NCBI GenBank assembly: GCA_965153355.1
Contig: OZ231126.1
Coordinates: 44,764,001-44,828,000 of the forward strand
Source: Flaccisagitta enflata
Lineage: Eukaryota
DNA: 64,000 nt
Direction: 5' to 3'
In this document: piece by piece, positions 5,388 through 32,258 of the stretch
Layout of the letters: every line of letters begins with the position of its first letter
How positions within the stretch are numbered: the first letter of the stretch is position 1
Translations under genes and position numbers: made by a program
Notes under the pieces: generated by a model
Database searches by the model: none
Told to the model about the DNA's origin: nothing
What the model saw: only the letters and a program-made list of their open reading frames with translations

Positions 5388-6293
<906 letters not shown>

Positions 6294-27473: not shown

Positions 27474-28314
27474 GAGAGGAGTAAGTGCGCTGTGTCTCGA
27501 TCTCGACGTAAGAACACTTTTATATAGTAATGTAGTGGTCAATGAATACGCCCTGCCCTGTTGAATCCCGCTTTCATGTCATTATTTTCACCGCGACAAA
27601 GAAAAACAAGCATTCTAGTCTGTTATGTTTTCTTGACCCCCTACCCCCCCTCGTTCCCTCTCGAAATGTCACTCTTTTGTCCTTGCTTTTAATTGATATT
27701 TCACGCACATATTCCTTCCTTTAGAATGATCAGAAAGATAGGTCAGTGGTCAAGTCTGTTGATTGAAATTTGCTAATGAATTTTCACTTCGGCTTTTTAT
27801 TTTTGCTCGAGTTTTGCGTGTGCCATAACATGACGCGCGCGTTCTCAGTCATGTTTAGCGTGCCTAAGTCACGCACACATGACTTTGAATTTATGCTTCT
27901 ATGCATCTATGCATAATTGCATATTGCGTGTAGCGTTGTCATGAAAAGCGTGTGTTTCCGCCATGTTGCGTGTGACATGACACAAAAAACGTTCCGCCGA
28001 CATGTTACGCGTGACACTGACTTGTGTAACTTGCTTCATGCGCCCAGAAGAGAACAAGCCCGACCAGGCAACGATGCGTCCGGACTGTGTCACTGCGTGG
28101 AGTAAATCTCACGATGCGAATGACGATGACGACGATGACTACAGCAAATTTGAGCGAGAGCGAGAGCGAGAAAGTGATCGAGAGTGAGAGAGGGAGTTTT
28201 TCATATCATGTGTGATATCCCTGTGGTTGAAAAGTGCCGAGAAATGCGGTTTGAGAAAAGGTTGCTGTTGTTGTTTCCCCGGGTGGCGAAGCCACGTAGA
28301 AAGCTCCGCAGGGT

Positions 28315-31300
28315 TTAAGGGGTGTCAGGAGGTTGAGGAGGAGGAGGAGGAGGCGGGGGATTAGCGGGAAGCAACGACGAAAAAGAAGGGAGAGATTGGA
28401 GGAAGCTGACGACGGTTGCCGGGTTGACCCAGAGGTCTCGCGGCGTCAAATTAGTAGGGACGGCACCACATTCAAATAAATGTTTAGCTGTATGGCGGTG
28501 GAAGAGGCATTCAGGGCATAAAGCCGAGCGCGTGTGGCCGAGGAGGACCTTGTAATCGTTTAGTAGGCGGCAGCTACCAGAGCGAAGTTGGGCCAGAGTG
28601 CAGCGCTGGATGCGATTGAGGTTTTTCTCAGAGGGCGAGATTTCGGGTGGCGTGGAATTAAGCAGCGGATTGGCACTTTTCAGTTTTTTAATGGAAGCAG
28701 CGATAAAGTCGGTGTGGACATTTTTCAGAACGGACTTGTAGGTAGCCGGGTCGACTGAGCCATTGGTAAGATAAGGATCGACGGCAGCCTGGTGTTTGCT
28801 CTGCAAGGTTGCCTTCATGGAACGGTGGCCGGAAGGAGCCGTGACGATGGGAAGGGAGGGATGCGTTGGGCGAAGGCAGCTGGCGAGATGTTGCGCGGAA
28901 AGCATGTCAAGATGATCGCGGACAAGAGGGAACTTGGCCTCATGATGAAGATGTTCAACAGTGGCAGCTTTGTGGCAGCCGGTGGCGATGCGAAGGGCGG
29001 CGTTTTGGATCTTCTGGATGTTGTTGAAGGAGGCGTCGCTTGCATTTGGCAACCAGACAGCGGCGGCATAGTTGATTTTGGGCTCGACGTAAGTTTTGAA
29101 GGTACGGAGCAGGAGCTCTTTCTGGCAGCCCCAACCAGTGCCAGCAAGAGCACGGAGCATACCAAGCTTCTTCTTACAGGATTTGACTAGATCGGCAGCG
29201 TGGGCATGGAAACAGAAATGGGTGTCCATGGTCACACCCAAGATTTTAGGCGTCTTGTTCAGAGGAATCGGAGCGCCGGCGATGGTGACATTGGGGTGGG
29301 TATCCGATTGACGAGCCCTGTCAGGAGTGAAGAATGTGATTGAAGATTTCGTCGGAGCGATGACAAGTTCTTTCCTTAGAGCCCATGTTTCGAAGGCATC
29401 GATGTCGCTTTGCAATCTTCTCTCGATCTCCGCCAACTCTGAAGACGACTGACTGGTCGTAAAGTCATCCGCGTAGGAAGGCTGACGGACAGGGCAGTTG
29501 CGAACAAAGAAGTTGAACAAAATGGGGCCGAGGACTGATCCTTGAGGGACGCCTCGTCTAACAATCCTCCAACTTGATGTGGCTCCCTGCCATATAACCC
29601 TGGATTGACGTCCACGGAGGTAAGCAGAAAGCCAGTGAAGCAGGTTGAGATGGAGGTCAGTCTCAGACGCTTCGTCAAGGAGGATAGAATGATGAACTGA
29701 CTCGAAAGCCTTTGCAATGTCGATGGCGACAGTCGCAGTGCGAGCGGCCGGTTTCTTTTCATTAAATCCCTGGGCGATACGAGTGACCGTCGGGAGTAAG
29801 GCAGAACTCGTCGAGTGATGTGGACGGAAGCCATGTTGAGTTTCTGTAGGTTTGAGAGACGCAGTAAAGAATGGAAGAAGAACTCGCTCGAGGAGTTTTG
29901 ACGCGGGACAAAGAAGCGAGATGGGGCGCTTAGACGACAATAAGAGCGGATCCTTCCCAGGCTTAGGGACAGGGATTATGTTGGCTTTCTTCCATATGGC
30001 TGGCATTTGCGCGTGTTGGACGGATAAGTTGAAGATGGAGGTGAGAGAGGCGATGGCGCGGCGACCGAAGTTTTTGTAGTGAATCATAGTGAGGCCATCC
30101 GGGCCAGCAGCAGATGAGCTTTTGGCACGTTGAATCGCAGCGATGACGGCAGTTTCGTCGATTGGCGCGTAGGAATGATCCATCTTCTTCTTCTTGATCT
30201 TGCGAATAACACGGCGTGTGAGAGGCGTTTGACGGTGAGGTACGACGTTGGCATATTTCTTGTTGAATCGATTCGCAATATTTCGTCGTTTAGTAAAAAT
30301 ACGGCCGTCGAAGTCGATGGGTTGATTTGGGGCGTTGTAAATGCGCTTTCCGGATAGCCGTCGAGTGATGCTGATGAATTTGGCTGAATTACCGTCGTTA
30401 TTAGTAGCGTCCAATTCTTCAATGAAGGCATCTCCCTTCGATTTGTTAATCGTTTCACGCAGTTGTCTCTCCAAGTCCGCAATTCCCGGATCATGGGGGC
30501 TGCGGGCGCGGAGGGCGTCGCGGCGGTCGCGAATTTCAGCAGCTTCGCGTGGAAAGTTAGGGACAAAGTCATGTCGGTAACCAGCCGGAATATTCCGGCG
30601 GGATGCTTGTAAGACTGCTTTCCTTAACTTAGCCTCGCCGTCGACGCAAGACGATGGGGGAGACGAAGGAACAAGCGACTCAAGATCTTCAGTGAATTTA
30701 CGCCAATTAGCTTTACGAAGACATGGATAAGTGCGACGCATGCGGACGTTGGGGAAGTTGTTGCGGAGTTGGGGGTCGACGAAGGAGATGAGGATGGGAA
30801 GGTGGTCGGAGTTGAGGGGTTGAGCGTTGAAGGCGCCGTTGGATATAGTGGGGACAGACCAGGTGACGAGAGGAAGGAGATGAGCGGAGATGAGCGAGAC
30901 GTCGGGAGAGGAAGGGGAGCCGTTGGCTGTGGTGGGAAGGCGTGTGGCGGCGTCGTTGTTGGCGATGCAGAAGTCGCTTTCTTCGATTGCGTCAAGGAGA
31001 CTCTCGCCCCTTGAATCGTCGGAAGTCGAGAACCATTCGTGACTATGAGCGTTGAAGTCGCCGAGGATGAAAGCATCTCCATCCGGGTGGTCAAGAATGG
31101 CGGTGAAATCCGGCAGATAATCATTGGGGCAAGAGGCAGACGGTGGGATGTAGACATTGTATATACGGATGTCTGCGTGGCGAAGGAAGATTTTAACGCC
31201 GATGATCTCAAGTCGCTGGTCCTTTAGCGTAGAGGTGTCGATTGGCGCAAATTCGACGTCGTGATGGACGAGGATGATGAGGCCGCCGCCTCCACCATCA

Positions 31301-31614
31301 CCAGGGCGGTCGCGTCGAAGGAGAGTGTAATTACTGAAGACAGGGTCCGGGATGTGTGGGCGTAGTTTGGATTCCTGGATACACGCAATCTTAACATTGT
31401 TTTCATGCAGATAAACTTCAAGTTCGTTCCTAGAGGTATTTATCGCATTGATATTAAGTTGGAGGACGCGAGGAATGTCGACGGGAGGAGGAGGACGAGG
31501 AGGGCGAGGGCCGGGATTGGGAGAGATTCCGGAGATGAAGAGGAGAATCAAAATAAGTCGTCGGATGAAGAGCTTCCCTGAAAGTTTTTGCCAGTAGAAA
31601 ATAGGCGTCCTCAT
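28315..31614 (-). CDS. APE endonuclease-reverse transcriptase polyprotein with C-terminal CCHC-type knuckle, 1099 aa
   Basis: APE motifs QLNIN, IQES, NVYIPP, GDFNAH, SDHLPI. RT motifs QHGFR, DIAKAF, PQGSVLGP, YADD, ILGV. C-terminal AQLRSG..CPEC-x8-HLFEC. No RNase H recognisable. Confidence 0.96.
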   Translation of the reverse strand: MRTPIFYWQKLSGKLFIRRLILILLFISGISPNPGPRPPRPPPPVDIPRVLQLNINAINTSRNELEVYLHENNVKIACIQESKLRPHIPDPVFSNYTLLRRDRPGDGGGGGLIILVHHDVEFAPIDTSTLKDQRLEIIGVKIFLRHADIRIYNVYIPPSASCPNDYLPDFTAILDHPDGDAFILGDFNAHSHEWFSTSDDSRGESLLDAIEESDFCIANNDAATRLPTTANGSPSSPDVSLISAHLLPLVTWSVPTISNGAFNAQPLNSDHLPILISFVDPQLRNNFPNVRMRRTYPCLRKANWRKFTEDLESLVPSSPPSSCVDGEAKLRKAVLQASRRNIPAGYRHDFVPNFPREAAEIRDRRDALRARSPHDPGIADLERQLRETINKSKGDAFIEELDATNNDGNSAKFISITRRLSGKRIYNAPNQPIDFDGRIFTKRRNIANRFNKKYANVVPHRQTPLTRRVIRKIKKKKMDHSYAPIDETAVIAAIQRAKSSSAAGPDGLTMIHYKNFGRRAIASLTSIFNLSVQHAQMPAIWKKANIIPVPKPGKDPLLLSSKRPISLLCPASKLLERVLLPFFTASLKPTETQHGFRPHHSTSSALLPTVTRIAQGFNEKKPAARTATVAIDIAKAFESVHHSILLDEASETDLHLNLLHWLSAYLRGRQSRVIWQGATSSWRIVRRGVPQGSVLGPILFNFFVRNCPVRQPSYADDFTTSQSSSELAEIERRLQSDIDAFETWALRKELVIAPTKSSITFFTPDRARQSDTHPNVTIAGAPIPLNKTPKILGVTMDTHFCFHAHAADLVKSCKKKLGMLRALAGTGWGCQKELLLRTFKTYVEPKINYAAAVWLPNASDASFNNIQKIQNAALRIATGCHKAATVEHLHHEAKFPLVRDHLDMLSAQHLASCLRPTHPSLPIVTAPSGHRSMKATLQSKHQAAVDPYLTNGSVDPATYKSVLKNVHTDFIAASIKKLKSANPLLNSTPPEISPSEKNLNRIQRCTLAQLRSGSCRLLNDYKVLLGHTRSALCPECLFHRHTAKHLFECGAVPTNLTPRDLWVNPATVVSFLQSLPSFSSLLPANPPPPPPPPQPPDTP

Positions 31615-31680
31615 ACTGGCGGATGTTGACGCCTTAGACGAAAAGAGGGTAAAGGTGCGAAGTTTGGGGGTTTTTGTTGG

Positions 31681-31750
31681 TCGTCGTTTGAGCCAACGTC
31701 ATGCTGACGTCGACATCCATCCACCACGGAAAGGCGACGATATCGGATGG
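31681..31750 (-). ncRNA. Putative HDV-like self-cleaving ribozyme at the 5' end of the retrotransposon
   Basis: Minus strand: P1 CCATCC(G)/(T)GGATGG; P2 TCGTC(G)/(C)GACGA; P3 (G)CC/GG(T) closing L3 TTTCCGT; P4 GTCGACGTCA-GCA-TGACGTTGGC; J4/2 T-C-AAA. It starts 2 nt inside the TSD. Folded by hand only. Confidence 0.75.
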
Positions 31751-32258
31751 TTTTTGAGAAAAGGTGAAATGGACCAACGGACCAAGGGACGGACGGATGG
31801 ACAGATGGACAGAAAAACGGTCAAACGGATTGTTGGACGGACAGACTGATGGACGAACGGATGGACGGACGAACGGACAAACGGATGGACAGACCCTCTT
31901 ATAAAGATGCGTTCCTGATGGACACAGCTAAAAATGTCAGCTGAAAATAAAAGAGAAAATTTCAGCCTTTGATGTTTTGCTGGCCATTTGATCGTCTATG
32001 CGACCGACCCCTACCACTACCACGGTCAGTCTTTGCGTCTTTTTATTTATGAACAGATTTGCGGTTGAAGAATGACCGACAAATCAGCAACGAAATTAGC
32101 TGGATGAAATCAAAGGTGATGACCTCGCTCTGCCTGACTGACAACCTGCCGGCATGATAAGCAACAGACTGTTGACCTAACTTGTCGAATTGATTCTATT
32201 ATGGCTTCAAGTAAGCAAATATCTTTCTCTGTCTATCTTTCTCTTACGCTCTCTTTTT

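What the first reader, a model, noticed from the sequence alone, without database searches (positions are those of the whole stretch)
31681..31752. HDV-like ribozyme fold at the exact 5' terminus of an intact Vingi-like retrotransposon
Seen: on the minus strand, 2 nt inside the TSD, the sequence reads CCATCCG ATA TCGTCG CC TTTCCGT GG TGGATGG AT GTCGACGTCA GCA TGACGTTGGC T C AAA CGACGA. This gives nested P1, P2 and P3 helices, a 7-nt L3, a 10-bp P4 and a J4/2 with a C at the catalytic position, in HDV double-pseudoknot order. Known: HDV-like ribozymes occupy the 5' ends of R2 and L1Tc/Ingi elements, and the P3-L3 segment GCC-TTTCCGT-GGT parallels ACC-TCAACGT-GGT of the L1Tc Pr77 element as I recall it. 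Inference: self-cleavage sets the element's 5' end, which would explain why P1 starts at the insertion boundary. Caveats: the canonical GG of P1.1 is replaced by AT, and P1/P3 have two possible registers, so this may be a variant fold.
Basis: partly seen in the sequence, partly recalled or inferred. Interest (0 to 1): 0.88.

Follow-up and report, generated by a model that had tools for sequence, protein, structure and literature searches.

The report
Self-cleaving ribozyme heading a retrotransposon
The first 70 bases of an intact jumping gene fold like the self-cutting RNA of hepatitis delta virus, and related elements keep the same fold, which is a known way for such elements to trim their RNA to its exact start.

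Summary
On the minus strand a 3,490-bp single-ORF APE+RT LINE (28263-31752) sits between perfect 13-bp target-site duplications. Its bases 31750-31681 can form P1, P2, P3/L3, P4 and a J4/2 cytosine in HDV order.

The window alone does not prove this. The Rfam HDV hit scores 17.9 bits against a cut-off of 44, the MFE z-score is -1.0, and loose helix descriptors match everywhere.

The evidence comes from relatives. Protein-homologous elements from metagenomes carry the same fold upstream of their ORFs: 9 by covariance model and 2 by hand, out of 20 loci with at least 250 nt upstream. Across the 11 aligned rows, 91% of cells pair against 60% in shuffles, and 23 of 26 pairs show double changes. 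This includes P2 and P1.1, which were not in the model. A model built from 9 relatives only finds one site in the 64-kb window, exactly here (39.4 bits, E 2e-7).

The "missing GG" is a covarying P1.1: U-A in this copy, C-G in half the relatives.

Catalysis is inferred, not shown, and no RNA data bear on it. The "Vingi" label could not be tested. Verdict: a new member of a known kind, an L1Tc-like HDV-like ribozyme at a LINE 5' end.

The parts
31753..31765 (.). 5' copy of the 13-bp target-site duplication (ACCTTTTCTCAAA on the minus strand)
   Evidence: identical 13-mer at both ends of the element
31751..31752 (-). Two A's between the TSD and ribozyme nt 1. They are probably untemplated or microhomology nucleotides added at the 5' junction, upstream of the predicted cleavage site.
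   Evidence: 5' junction additions that self-cleavage later removes are described for R2 (PMC3774820).
31681..31750 (-). HDV-like ribozyme, 70 nt; predicted cleavage 5' of C31750
   Evidence: R3 (relatives-only model) 39.4 bits, E 2.3e-7, the only significant hit in 64 kb; Rfam RF02682 17.9 bits; covariation
31745..31750 (-). P1 5' strand (nt 1-6); pairs with 31717-31722 (nt 29-34)
   Evidence: 6 of 6 pairs show double changes across 11 rows; 98.5% of cells paired
31736..31740 (-). P2 5' strand (nt 11-15); pairs with 31681-31685 (nt 66-70); this is the pseudoknot helix
   Evidence: P2 was not part of the model; 5 of 5 pairs show double changes
31723..31735 (-). P3 (nt 16-18 with 26-28) enclosing L3 UUUCCGU (nt 19-25)
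   Evidence: P3 cells 100% paired; L3 first base is U in 11 of 11 rows
31715..31716 (-). J1/4 = AU (nt 35-36). A35 pairs with L3 U21 (31730) to form a 1-bp P1.1. U36 faces U20, a mismatch.
   Evidence: this pair is U-A in 5 and C-G in 5 of 10 scored rows, never broken
31692..31714 (-). P4 hairpin, 10 bp with a 3-nt loop (nt 37-59)
   Evidence: 9 of 10 pairs show double changes; length varies among relatives (21-71 nt)
31686..31691 (-). J4/2 (nt 60-65, U + CAAAC); candidate catalytic cytosine C61 at 31690
   Evidence: C-A-A is invariant in 10 rows and C-A-G in 1; the C is present in 11 of 11 rows
31615..31680 (-). 66-nt spacer between the ribozyme and the start codon
28315..31614 (-). Single intact ORF, 1,099 aa: APE endonuclease (aa 51-274), reverse transcriptase (aa 549-794), C-terminal CCHC-like motif; no RNase H hit
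31507..31518 (-). NPGP of a degenerate 2A-like leader (…SGISPNPGP, aa 33-36)
   Evidence: relatives carry AGI[S/H]PNPGP or canonical GD(V/I)ExNPGP
28263..28314 (-). 3' UTR ending in a short (CAA)n-like tail (28263-28276)
   Evidence: similar tails in L007, L012, L013, L014, L018
28250..28262 (.). 3' copy of the 13-bp target-site duplication

Best explanation

Proposed mechanism: when the element is transcribed, probably as part of a longer read-through transcript, the RNA folds into the nested double pseudoknot (P1-P1.1-P2-P3-P4). It cuts itself 5' of C31750, with C61 (31690) in J4/2 as the catalytic base. This removes host sequence and the two junction A's. The element RNA is left with a defined 5'-OH end that still carries the ribozyme, so every full-length new copy inherits it. 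The stable fold left on the 5' end may also protect the RNA or help translation of the 2A-leader ORF 66 nt downstream.

Shown here: the fold, its conservation by compensatory change in related elements, and its position at the insertion boundary.
Inferred: catalysis, the cleavage site, co-transcription, and any role in translation.
For: 1. Anatomy and position. The helices stand in HDV order starting 2 nt inside a perfect 13-bp TSD of an intact element.

2. Relatives were chosen by protein, not by RNA (80 metagenome loci). They carry the same fold on the sense strand upstream of the APE domain.
- A window-only model (R1, filters off, 25 loci, 94 kb) ranked L041, L018 and L012 first.
- R2 then found six loci that were not in its training set: L019 E 3.6e-5, L027 5e-4, L007 1.4e-3, L028 3e-3, L017 0.011, L015 0.022.

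3. Covariation on the 11-row alignment A9.
- 91.0% of cells pair against 60.3% in shuffles (0 of 500 shuffles reach it).
- Slid controls give 27-47%.
- 23 of 26 pairs have changes on both sides.
- P2 and P1.1 were not in the model, so they are an unbiased test. P2: 5 of 5 pairs with double changes, 78.8% paired despite register slips. P1.1 pair L3-3/J1: C-G in 5 rows, U-A in 5 rows, none broken.
- RNAalifold on the 9 relatives alone predicts P1, P3 and P4, with 15 of 18 pairs compensated.

4. Independent membership test. R3 was built from 9 relatives without the window. It gives one significant hit in 64 kb on both strands, at 31750-31681 (39.4 bits, E 2.3e-7). The next hit scores 9.7 bits, E 2.2. 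R3 finds nothing below E 0.17 in the other 59 non-training loci, about 250 kb.

5. Active-site letters are kept: L3 begins with U in 11 of 11 rows; CG at L3 positions 5-6 in 8 of 10 scored rows; C-A-(A/G) in J4/2 in 11 of 11 rows.

6. The best weak Rfam hits are HDV families for two different members: RF02682 for the window and RF00094 for L012.

7. 5' end.
- In the related pair L013/L014 the flanks differ, and homology begins at the first P1 base.
- In the DNA runs, contig pieces start exactly at 31753 (records 7, 12, 21).

8. Precedent. L1TcRz is active in vitro with a single-pair P1.1 (PMC3185411, passages). Trypanosomatid ribozymes differ from HDV and R2 in the orientation of the P1 G-C pairs and in P1.1 composition (PMC4035085, section 9).
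Against: - No cleavage has been shown for any member of this family.
- The window copy departs from its own family at two sensitive places. Nt +1 is C (a C-G pair), where 10 of the 12 curated sequences have G (G.U or G-C). P1.1 has one pair (U-A) plus a U.U mismatch, where 10 of 12 have two pairs.
- Rfam scores are far under the gathering cut-offs. A lax Rfam scan of 16 relatives (62 kb) listed no HDV family at E up to 10.
- P1 does not start at the TSD itself; two A's intervene.
- L002, the closest relative with upstream sequence (45% protein identity), has no hit. Neither do L022, L036 and L039.
- The alignment used for P1/P3/P4 counts was fitted to that structure.
- The first relatives were found with a window-derived model, so locus choice is partly circular.
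- E-values come from a shortened calibration and are rough.
- Only one copy lies in the window. The 56-60%-identity relatives (P0002-P0005) could not be read as DNA.
Confidence: 0.72

Rival explanations
1. The family has a real ribozyme, but this copy is a weakened or dead one. The C-G first pair and the single-pair P1.1 would abolish or greatly slow cleavage. The 5' end of this insertion would then simply reflect the end of a template RNA that was cut by a better parent copy.
For: +1 is G in 10 of 12 curated sequences, but C here. P1.1 has two pairs in 10 of 12, but one here. R3 scores the window at 39.4 bits, in the range of its own training members' R2 scores (17.9-77.7 bits) but not at the top.
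Against: The insertion looks young and whole: perfect 13-bp TSD and an intact 1,099-aa ORF. L015 independently has the same UU/AU arrangement. L1TcRz cleaves with a one-pair P1.1 (PMC3185411); its P1' strand, read from a primer printed, ends in GGG followed by UC, which implies a C at +1 there too (inference). The A at -1 cannot extend P1, a feature reported to hurt L1TcRz when it does.
Confidence: 0.13
2. The fold is a conserved structured 5' UTR element with HDV-like topology that does not cleave. It could be, for example, a 5' exonuclease block, a translation-initiation platform for the 2A-leader ORF, or a handle for the element's own protein.
For: Covariation proves structure, not chemistry. 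The HDV-like fold is reported to protect template RNA 5' ends in R2-derived tools (PMC13708176, passage). Two members (L017, L028) carry a 22-23-nt insert inside L3, the active-site loop.
Against: The unpaired positions that matter for catalysis are the most conserved letters: the J4/2 C-A-A and the L3 U…CG. A purely structural role would not require this. A non-cleaving fold would not explain why the element begins at P1.
Confidence: 0.1
3. The conserved 5' block acts at the DNA level as an internal promoter, like Pr77 of L1Tc, and the RNA pairings are incidental.
For: In L1Tc the same 77 nt are both promoter and ribozyme (PMC3383444, abstract). This role cannot be excluded as an additional function.
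Against: The helices change sequence freely while keeping complementarity (23 of 26 pairs). That is the signature of selection on RNA pairing, not on a DNA motif.
Confidence: 0.03
4. Chance resemblance in a GC-balanced 5' UTR.
For: The single-sequence statistics are weak. Loose descriptors match about 2,000 places in the 85 loci: 300 on the sense strands and 1,679 on the antisense strands.
Against: R3, built without the window, gives E 2.3e-7 for exactly this site. The same fold is found in 11 related elements.
Confidence: 0.02

Closest known systems
L1TcRz, the HDV-like ribozyme in the Pr77 hallmark of Trypanosoma cruzi L1Tc and other L1Tc/ingi-clade elements (PMC3185411, PMC4035085)
   Same: It occupies the first ~70-80 nt of a single-ORF APE-type LINE whose ORF opens with a 2A-type leader. 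It is retained in the cleaved RNA. P3 is 3 bp. P1.1 is reduced to one pair, with no GG after P1'. P3' reads GGU and is followed directly by P1'; this comes from the reverse complement of primer L1Tc55+47r printed, which gives GGU-GCCAGGG-UC.
   Different: L1Tc/ingi elements have RNase H and this element does not. The host is a marine eukaryote, not a kinetoplastid. Most members of the present family have G at +1 and a two-pair P1.1 of varying composition. Promoter function is unknown.
R2 HDV-like ribozymes (PMC3774820)
   Same: 5'-end processing of a LINE RNA. P1 is 6-7 bp, P2 at least 5 bp, P4 highly variable, J1/4 0-2 nt, with few invariant bases beyond the catalytic C. Variable, untemplated 5' junction nucleotides are removed at the next round by cleavage.
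   Different: R2 uses a restriction-like endonuclease and inserts only in 28S rDNA. Many R2 ribozymes borrow P1 from the rRNA and have active-site sequences close to HDV.
HDV genomic/antigenomic ribozymes and the Rfam families RF00094 and RF02682
   Same: The same nested double-pseudoknot order. L3 is 7-8 nt starting with U and carrying C-G near its 3' end. A cytosine followed by purines in J4/2 stands just before P2'. The identities of the HDV positions are recalled, not taken from a call.
   Different: Scores are 17.9 and 14.9 bits, against cut-offs of 44 and 50. The window has C-G instead of G.U at the cleavage site and U-A instead of two C-G pairs in P1.1.
Ribozymes reported at the 5' ends of the RTE, LOA, R1 and R4 clades (Ruminski et al. 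2011, known here only through Kojima 2018, PMC5786205, section 23)
   Same: General role and location.
   Different: The paper itself is not held, so no feature-by-feature comparison was possible. Kojima's 2018 list of six clades with a 5' ribozyme (R1, R2, R4, RTE, Ingi, LOA) does not include Vingi.

Membership tests
HDV-like self-cleaving ribozymes | P1 of about 6-7 bp starting at the cleavage site, with its 3' strand directly after P3' | tested here: met
   6 bp, nt 1-6 with 29-34; 98.5% of cells paired and 6 of 6 pairs compensated
HDV-like self-cleaving ribozymes | P2 pseudoknot of at least 5 bp joining the P1 loop to the 3' end | tested here: met
   5 bp (11-15 with 66-70). It was not in the model, yet 5 of 5 pairs are compensated. 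Curated P2 is 4-8 bp in 12 of 12 sequences.
HDV-like self-cleaving ribozymes | 3-bp P3 closing a 7-8-nt L3 | tested here: met
   G.U + 2 C-G, L3 of 7 nt; 100% of cells paired
HDV-like self-cleaving ribozymes | P1.1 between L3 and J1/4 (canonically two C-G pairs) | tested here: inconclusive
   The window has one U-A pair plus a U.U mismatch. The first pair covaries C-G / U-A in 10 of 10 rows. Two pairs are present in 10 of 12 curated sequences. A one-pair P1.1 is active in L1TcRz.
HDV-like self-cleaving ribozymes | Cytosine in J4/2 just upstream of P2' | tested here: met
   C61 (31690); the C is present in 11 of 11 aligned rows, followed by A-A/G
HDV-like self-cleaving ribozymes | G at +1 forming a G.U wobble at the base of P1 | tested here: not met
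   The window has C1-G34. Across rows: G.U 5, G-C 4, C-G 1, unpaired 1 of 11.
HDV-like self-cleaving ribozymes | Reaches the gathering score of an Rfam HDV-type family | tested here: not met
   17.9 bits against 44 for RF02682
HDV-like self-cleaving ribozymes | Site-specific self-scission giving 5'-OH and 2',3'-cyclic phosphate ends | not testable with these tools
L1Tc/ingi Pr77-type ribozyme | Lies in the first ~77 nt of the element and cleaves at +1 | tested here: inconclusive
   Location met: nt 1 is 2 nt inside the TSD. The cleavage point was not tested.
L1Tc/ingi Pr77-type ribozyme | Sequence homology to the Pr77 hallmark | not tested
   No L1Tc/ingi sequence is reachable. Only a 21-nt primer complement was seen.
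Vingi clade of non-LTR retrotransposons | Single long ORF with APE and RT and no RNase H | tested here: met
   One 1,099-aa ORF; Pfam finds Exo_endo_phos, Exo_endo_phos_2 and RVT_1 only. The description of Vingi is from PMC13708176 and PMC3708506. RTE and several CR1-group lineages also fit this description.
Vingi clade of non-LTR retrotransposons | RT-domain phylogeny placing it with Vingi, sister to Ingi | not testable with these tools
   No named reference LINEs are in any searchable collection.
2A 'ribosome-skipping' peptides | Motif GD(V/I)ExNPGP preceded by a suitable upstream tract | tested here: not met
   The window has SGISPNPGP: NPGP and the Leu-rich tract are present, but D and E are absent. 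E-to-S variants tested inactive in Nematostella elements (PMC3708506). More distant relatives have the canonical motif.

The most novel reading that the evidence does not exclude
A ribozyme-plus-2A-leader 5' module (HDV-like ribozyme, short spacer, Leu-rich leader ending in NPGP, then APE-RT) is the ancestral head of a large, unannotated lineage of single-ORF LINEs found in marine, freshwater and soil eukaryotes. It is homologous to the Pr77/L1TcRz + 2A head of the kinetoplastid L1Tc/ingi elements. On this reading the L1Tc arrangement is not a trypanosome oddity but a relic of an old design. The cleaved ribozyme fold would serve as the cap-independent entry point for translating the leader-2A ORF. 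The same could underlie the reported need to keep the native 5' UTR in Vingi-derived gene-insertion tools.
Probability: 0.3. Interest if true: 0.65.

Novelty: new member of a known kind. Interest (0 to 1): 0.5.

Why it matters
HDV-like ribozymes at LINE 5' ends are established for R2, L1Tc/ingi, RTE and a few other clades. A specialist would therefore not be astonished by another one.

What this case adds:
- A whole family of about 70-120-nt ribozymes that no Rfam model catches. It is supported by unusually clean covariation, including in the tiny P1.1 helix, whose composition drifts between GC/GC, AU/AU, GU/AC, AC/GU and UC/GA.
- A link between this ribozyme and a 2A-type leader outside trypanosomes.
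- A concrete set of natural variants (G or C at +1; one- or two-pair P1.1; hairpin inserts in L3) for testing what the HDV fold tolerates.

If the clade is Vingi or close to it, this fills a gap in the list of ribozyme-bearing LINE clades. It may also matter for engineering Vingi-type elements, whose 5' UTR is being carried along empirically.

Tried and rejected
- Own-genome search: no genome is held for this window.
- Other copies in the window: none by blastn or by pattern, so no paralogue covariation was possible.
- Earlier findings of the scan: nothing by place, sequence or words.
- Viral and prokaryote-genome collections: only distant or irrelevant RT hits.
- Lax Rfam scan of 16 relatives (62 kb): no HDV family at E up to 10. 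Rfam on L013 180-340: nothing relevant.
- MAFFT alignments of the ribozymes misaligned P4 and the 3' end and were dropped.
- Default cmsearch filters lost true members, so filters were switched off for later searches.
- Helix-only descriptors are non-specific: 300 sense and 1,679 antisense hits in the 85 loci.
- My automatic annotator chose wrong P2 partners. It was replaced by hand-set segment lengths that were checked by code.
- RNA: no RNA holder was listed by the index.
- The one poly(A) RNA run of the same study (X9, about 6% of it read) put no read on 31100-31745 and only repeat-derived reads on the flank. This says nothing for or against expression or cleavage.
- Paralogue variants from DNA contigs: none were listed inside 31681-31750 (23 rows were not shown).
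- Taxon and names: the Atlas and the cluster look-ups gave none. The PDB gave only generic LINE-1, R2 and TRAS1 proteins.
- Ruminski 2011 and Kojima 2011 are not held. Supplementary figures of the L1Tc papers, which show the foldings and the Pr77 alignments, could not be seen and may bear on the L1Tc comparison.
- Not-in-print claim: searches found no paper linking Vingi with a ribozyme beyond Kojima 2018's list.
Full report
OBSERVATION

I number the candidate from nt 1 = C31750 to nt 70 = A31681.

A perfect 13-bp direct repeat, ACCTTTTCTCAAA, lies at 31765-31753 and again at 28262-28250. It brackets a 3,490-bp element (31752-28263). Two A's (31752-31751) separate the upstream repeat from nt 1.

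The element has one intact ORF of 1,099 aa (31614-28315). Pfam finds an APE-type endonuclease (aa 51-274) and a reverse transcriptase (aa 549-794), and no RNase H. It ends in a short (CAA)n-like tail. So the claims "intact" and "P1 starts 2 nt inside the TSD" are both correct.

THE SINGLE SEQUENCE IS NOT ENOUGH

- No Rfam family reaches its gathering score anywhere in the 64 kb.
- A lax scan of 301 nt gives a full-length alignment to RF02682 (the Faecalibacterium HDV-like ribozyme). It scores only 17.9 bits against a cut-off of 44, E 0.39.
- RNAfold cannot draw pseudoknots. It gives an ordinary energy: z = -1.0, and 35 of 200 shuffles fold as well.
- Two helix-only descriptors that I wrote matched very many places. 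One matched 300 sense and 1,679 antisense sites in the 85 fetched loci.
- There is only one copy in the window, and no genome is held for it.

RELATIVES, CHOSEN BY PROTEIN

The ORF has 70 relatives in the protein collection. Most come from contigs of 3-5 kb, and none carries a name.

An 18-protein alignment (A1) was used to scan JGI metagenome contigs. Of 582 pattern matches, 439 encoded a relative, and the best 80 were kept as L001-L080. The viral and prokaryote-genome collections gave only distant hits.

Reading the 5' regions showed two things.
- Many relatives open their ORF with a Leu-rich leader ending in a canonical 2A motif (GDVEENPGP, GDIESNPGP and the like).
- Several have, upstream of the ORF, a stretch that can be parsed just like the window's. 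The central GCC-L3-GGU block is the same, and the flanking helices are completely different but still complementary.

COVARIANCE MODELS

MAFFT could not align the variable P4. I therefore seeded a model with the window sequence alone, giving it P1, P3 and P4 as structure (R1). P2 and P1.1 cross other helices and cannot be put in such a model.

- R1, filters off, over 25 loci (94 kb): the top hits were L041 (E 0.008), L018 (0.026) and L012 (0.075). All were on the sense strand in the 5' region.
- R2 was built from the window plus L041, L018, L012 and L005. It found six loci that were not in its training set: L019 (E 3.6e-5), L027 (5e-4), L007 (1.4e-3), L028 (3e-3), L017 (0.011) and L015 (0.022). 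Again all were on the sense strand upstream of the endonuclease domain.
- By hand I found a twelfth and thirteenth case, L013 and L014. These are two copies of one family with different flanks. Their P3 is GGG/CCC, so the model missed them.

Coverage: 20 loci have at least 250 nt upstream of the protein match. Eleven of them carry the fold (9 by model, 2 by hand).
- In five of the nine negatives (L010, L016, L020, L026, L034) the reading frame is open to the first bases of the contig. The 5' UTR is simply not on the contig.
- L002, L022, L036 and L039 have upstream sequence but no hit. L002 is the closest relative with upstream sequence (45% identity), so the fold is not universal in the family.

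COVARIATION

On the 11-row alignment A9 (printed) I counted a structure that includes the two unmodelled pairings: P2 as columns 13-17 with 138-142, and P1.1 as columns 24-25 with 66 and 64.

- 91.0% of 256 cells form a standard pair, against 60.3 ± 2.1% in shuffles. None of 500 shuffles reaches the observed value.
- Sliding the partners by 1-3 columns gives 27-47%.
- 23 of 26 pairs have a change on both sides.
- Per helix, cells paired and pairs compensated:
  - P1: 98.5%, 6 of 6.
  - P3: 100%.
  - P4: 91.8%, 9 of 10.
  - P2: 78.8%, 5 of 5. This is despite register slips in L019, L007 and L015 that the model could not correct.
  - P1.1: 80%, 2 of 2.
- The inner P1.1 pair (third base of L3 with the first base after P1') is C-G in five rows, U-A in five rows, and never broken.

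The P1, P3 and P4 counts lean towards the model because the alignment was fitted to it. The P2 and P1.1 counts do not. RNAalifold run on the nine relatives alone predicts P1, P3 and P4, with 15 of 18 pairs compensated.

A hand-set segmentation, with pairing checked by code, gives the full picture for 12 sequences:
- P1: 6 bp in all; one mismatch, in L017.
- P2: 4-8 bp.
- P3: 3 bp.
- L3: 7-8 nt.
- J1/4: 2 nt.
- P4 region: 21-71 nt.
- J4/2: C-A-(A/G)-N-N in 11 of 12; L007 has one extra base (CAAAUC).
- P1.1: GC/GC, AU/AU, GU/AC, AC/GU or UC/GA, with two pairs in 10 of 12 sequences.

AN INDEPENDENT TEST OF THE WINDOW

R3 was built from the nine relatives only, without the window and without L041.
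- Scoring every position of the 64-kb window on both strands, it returns one significant match, 31750-31681 on the minus strand: 39.4 bits, E 2.3e-7. The runner-up scores 9.7 bits, E 2.2.
- Over the other 60 loci (255 kb), which include about 40 more distant LINEs with 1-4 kb of upstream sequence, R3 finds only its own training member L028. Nothing else falls below E 0.17.

So the model is specific. This ribozyme type is confined, in this sample, to the lineage that is 33-47% identical to the window's protein and carries the 2A leader.

E-values are rough because calibration is shortened. The chain of models began with the window, which makes the choice of training loci partly circular.

WHAT IS PARTICULAR ABOUT THE WINDOW'S COPY

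J1/4 is AU, and A35 pairs with U21 of L3. This is the same pair that is C-G in half the relatives. The second pair is a U.U mismatch, as in L015.
- The register question is answered. P1 of 6 bp plus P3 of 3 bp is the arrangement shared by all members.
- Nt +1 is C (C-G), whereas 10 of the 12 curated sequences have G (G.U or G-C). This is the main departure from both the family and canonical HDV-like ribozymes.
- The base at -1 is A and faces A35, so P1 cannot extend and displace P1.1. The L1Tc authors found that such an extension harms cleavage (PMC3185411, discussion passage).

THE 5' TERMINUS

- P1 starts two bases inside the TSD.
- For R2, untemplated nucleotides at 5' junctions are common. 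They are not inherited, because self-cleavage removes everything upstream (PMC3774820, introduction passage). The two A's fit that picture.
- In L013 and L014 the flanks are unrelated and the shared sequence begins at the first P1 base, give or take one T.
- In Logan contigs of two runs of the same organism and one marine metagenome, listed pieces begin exactly at 31753 (records 7, 12, 21). None of the listed pieces bridges 31746-31752.
- One 247-nt contig carries 172 further letters that do not match the element. This would fit an empty-site allele or a branch in the assembly graph at the insertion boundary. Only the longest of more than 8,000 pieces are listed, so this is suggestive only.
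- One metagenome contig matches 31674-31745 perfectly and then diverges 5 nt inside P1 (record 20). I cannot tell whether that is a substitution near the end of the match or a truncated copy.

RNA

The index listed no RNA holder. The single poly(A) RNA-seq run of the same study, of which about 6% was read, put no read on 31100-31745. This is uninformative either way.

COMPARISON WITH WHAT IS KNOWN

The closest described case is L1TcRz.
- It is an HDV-like ribozyme in the first 77 nt of T. cruzi L1Tc. It is active in vitro, with a 3-bp P3 and a P1.1 of one pair (PMC3185411, passages).
- The trypanosomatid ribozymes are said to differ from the HDV and R2 ones in the orientation of the G-C pairs of P1 and in P1.1 composition (PMC4035085, section 9).
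- From a primer printed in the methods, the L1Tc P3'-P1'-J1/4 reads GGU-GCCAGGG-UC. That means no GG after P1' and, by inference, a C at +1, as in the window.
- L1Tc and Ingi also open their ORF with a 2A sequence (PMC3708506, introduction passage).

R2 ribozymes show the same tolerances: P1 of 6-7 bp, variable P4, J1/4 of 0-2 nt, and few invariant bases (PMC3774820, section 16).

[quoted passage not shown] Vingi is not among them. My four literature searches found no later report for Vingi. Ruminski 2011 and Kojima 2011 are not held.

Whether the element is Vingi is open.
- It fits the description "single ORF, APE+RT, no RNase H, sister of Ingi" as far as domains go.
- Its next-nearest protein hits, at 23-30% identity, do carry RNase H.
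- RTE and CR1-group elements also fit the domain description, and no named references were available for a tree.

VERDICT

A real HDV-like fold, conserved in a family of LINEs, sits at the 5' boundary of an intact insertion. [quoted passage not shown] The main alternative is that this particular copy is impaired. It is a new member of a known kind.

Noticed in passing
window 31507-31614 (minus strand): The ORF opens with a 36-aa Leu-rich leader ending in SGISPNPGP, a degenerate 2A-like motif. Close relatives keep AGI[S/H]PNPGP. More distant ones have the canonical GD(V/I)ExNPGP, often followed by a PHD-like Cys/His block. Odon et al. 2013 reported finding no 2A in Vingi elements, and found E-to-S variants inactive.
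   Followed up: partly
L017:85-176, L017:4680-4745, L028:637-747: These members carry a 21-23-nt insert inside L3, the active-site loop. In L017 it forms a 9-bp hairpin. I do not know of HDV-like ribozymes with an L3 insert, so it is unclear whether these are active variants or decayed copies. The second L017 hit lies downstream of the first element and lacks P4 and P2.
   Followed up: partly
L013:233-353 and L014:216-336: A variant ribozyme of about 121 nt: P3 GGG/CCC, L3 UGUCCGC, 8-bp P2, 71-nt P4 region. It was missed by all three models. The two copies have unrelated flanks, and their homology begins at the first P1 base. The short hairpin at the start of the P4 region is intact in L013 and has two substitutions in L014.
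   Followed up: partly
L002:190-240: L002 is the closest relative with upstream sequence (45% protein identity), and no model hits it. Its 5' region instead holds a 7-bp helix whose 9-nt loop is fully complementary to a stretch 6 nt downstream. That gives a P1/P2-like pair of helices without P3 or L3.
   Followed up: no
L041:1882-1932: A 51-nt look-alike of the window's ribozyme has the same P1, P3/L3 and J4/2 letters but no P4 and no P2 complement. It lies in an apparently open frame upstream of a LINE that is 29% identical. It may be a remnant or a minimal form.
   Followed up: no
window 28263-28276; L007, L012, L013, L014, L018 3' ends; window 5388-6293: Elements of this family end in (CAA)n-like tails. 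The window also holds a 906-bp (CAACAA)n array, besides long (GA)n, (TG)n and (ATGATG)n arrays.
   Followed up: no
window 31780-31950: The upstream flank is a GGAC/GGACGGAT-type simple repeat. Summed contig depth there is very high in all three DNA runs, and it is the only part of the laid stretch with RNA reads (90-95% alike, so probably from other loci).
   Followed up: no
window 31678-31745: Summed contig depth over the ribozyme is about 4-5 times that of the rest of the element in runs X1 and X2 (755-1,055 against 136-450, and 536-657 against 52-211). This hints that more copies, or short non-autonomous derivatives, share the 5' head. Depth here is not a copy number.
   Followed up: no
window 28330-28400 (minus strand; ORF C-terminus): The C-terminus has a CCHC-like motif (CPEC…H…C) conserved across relatives, followed by a proline-rich tail.
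   Followed up: no
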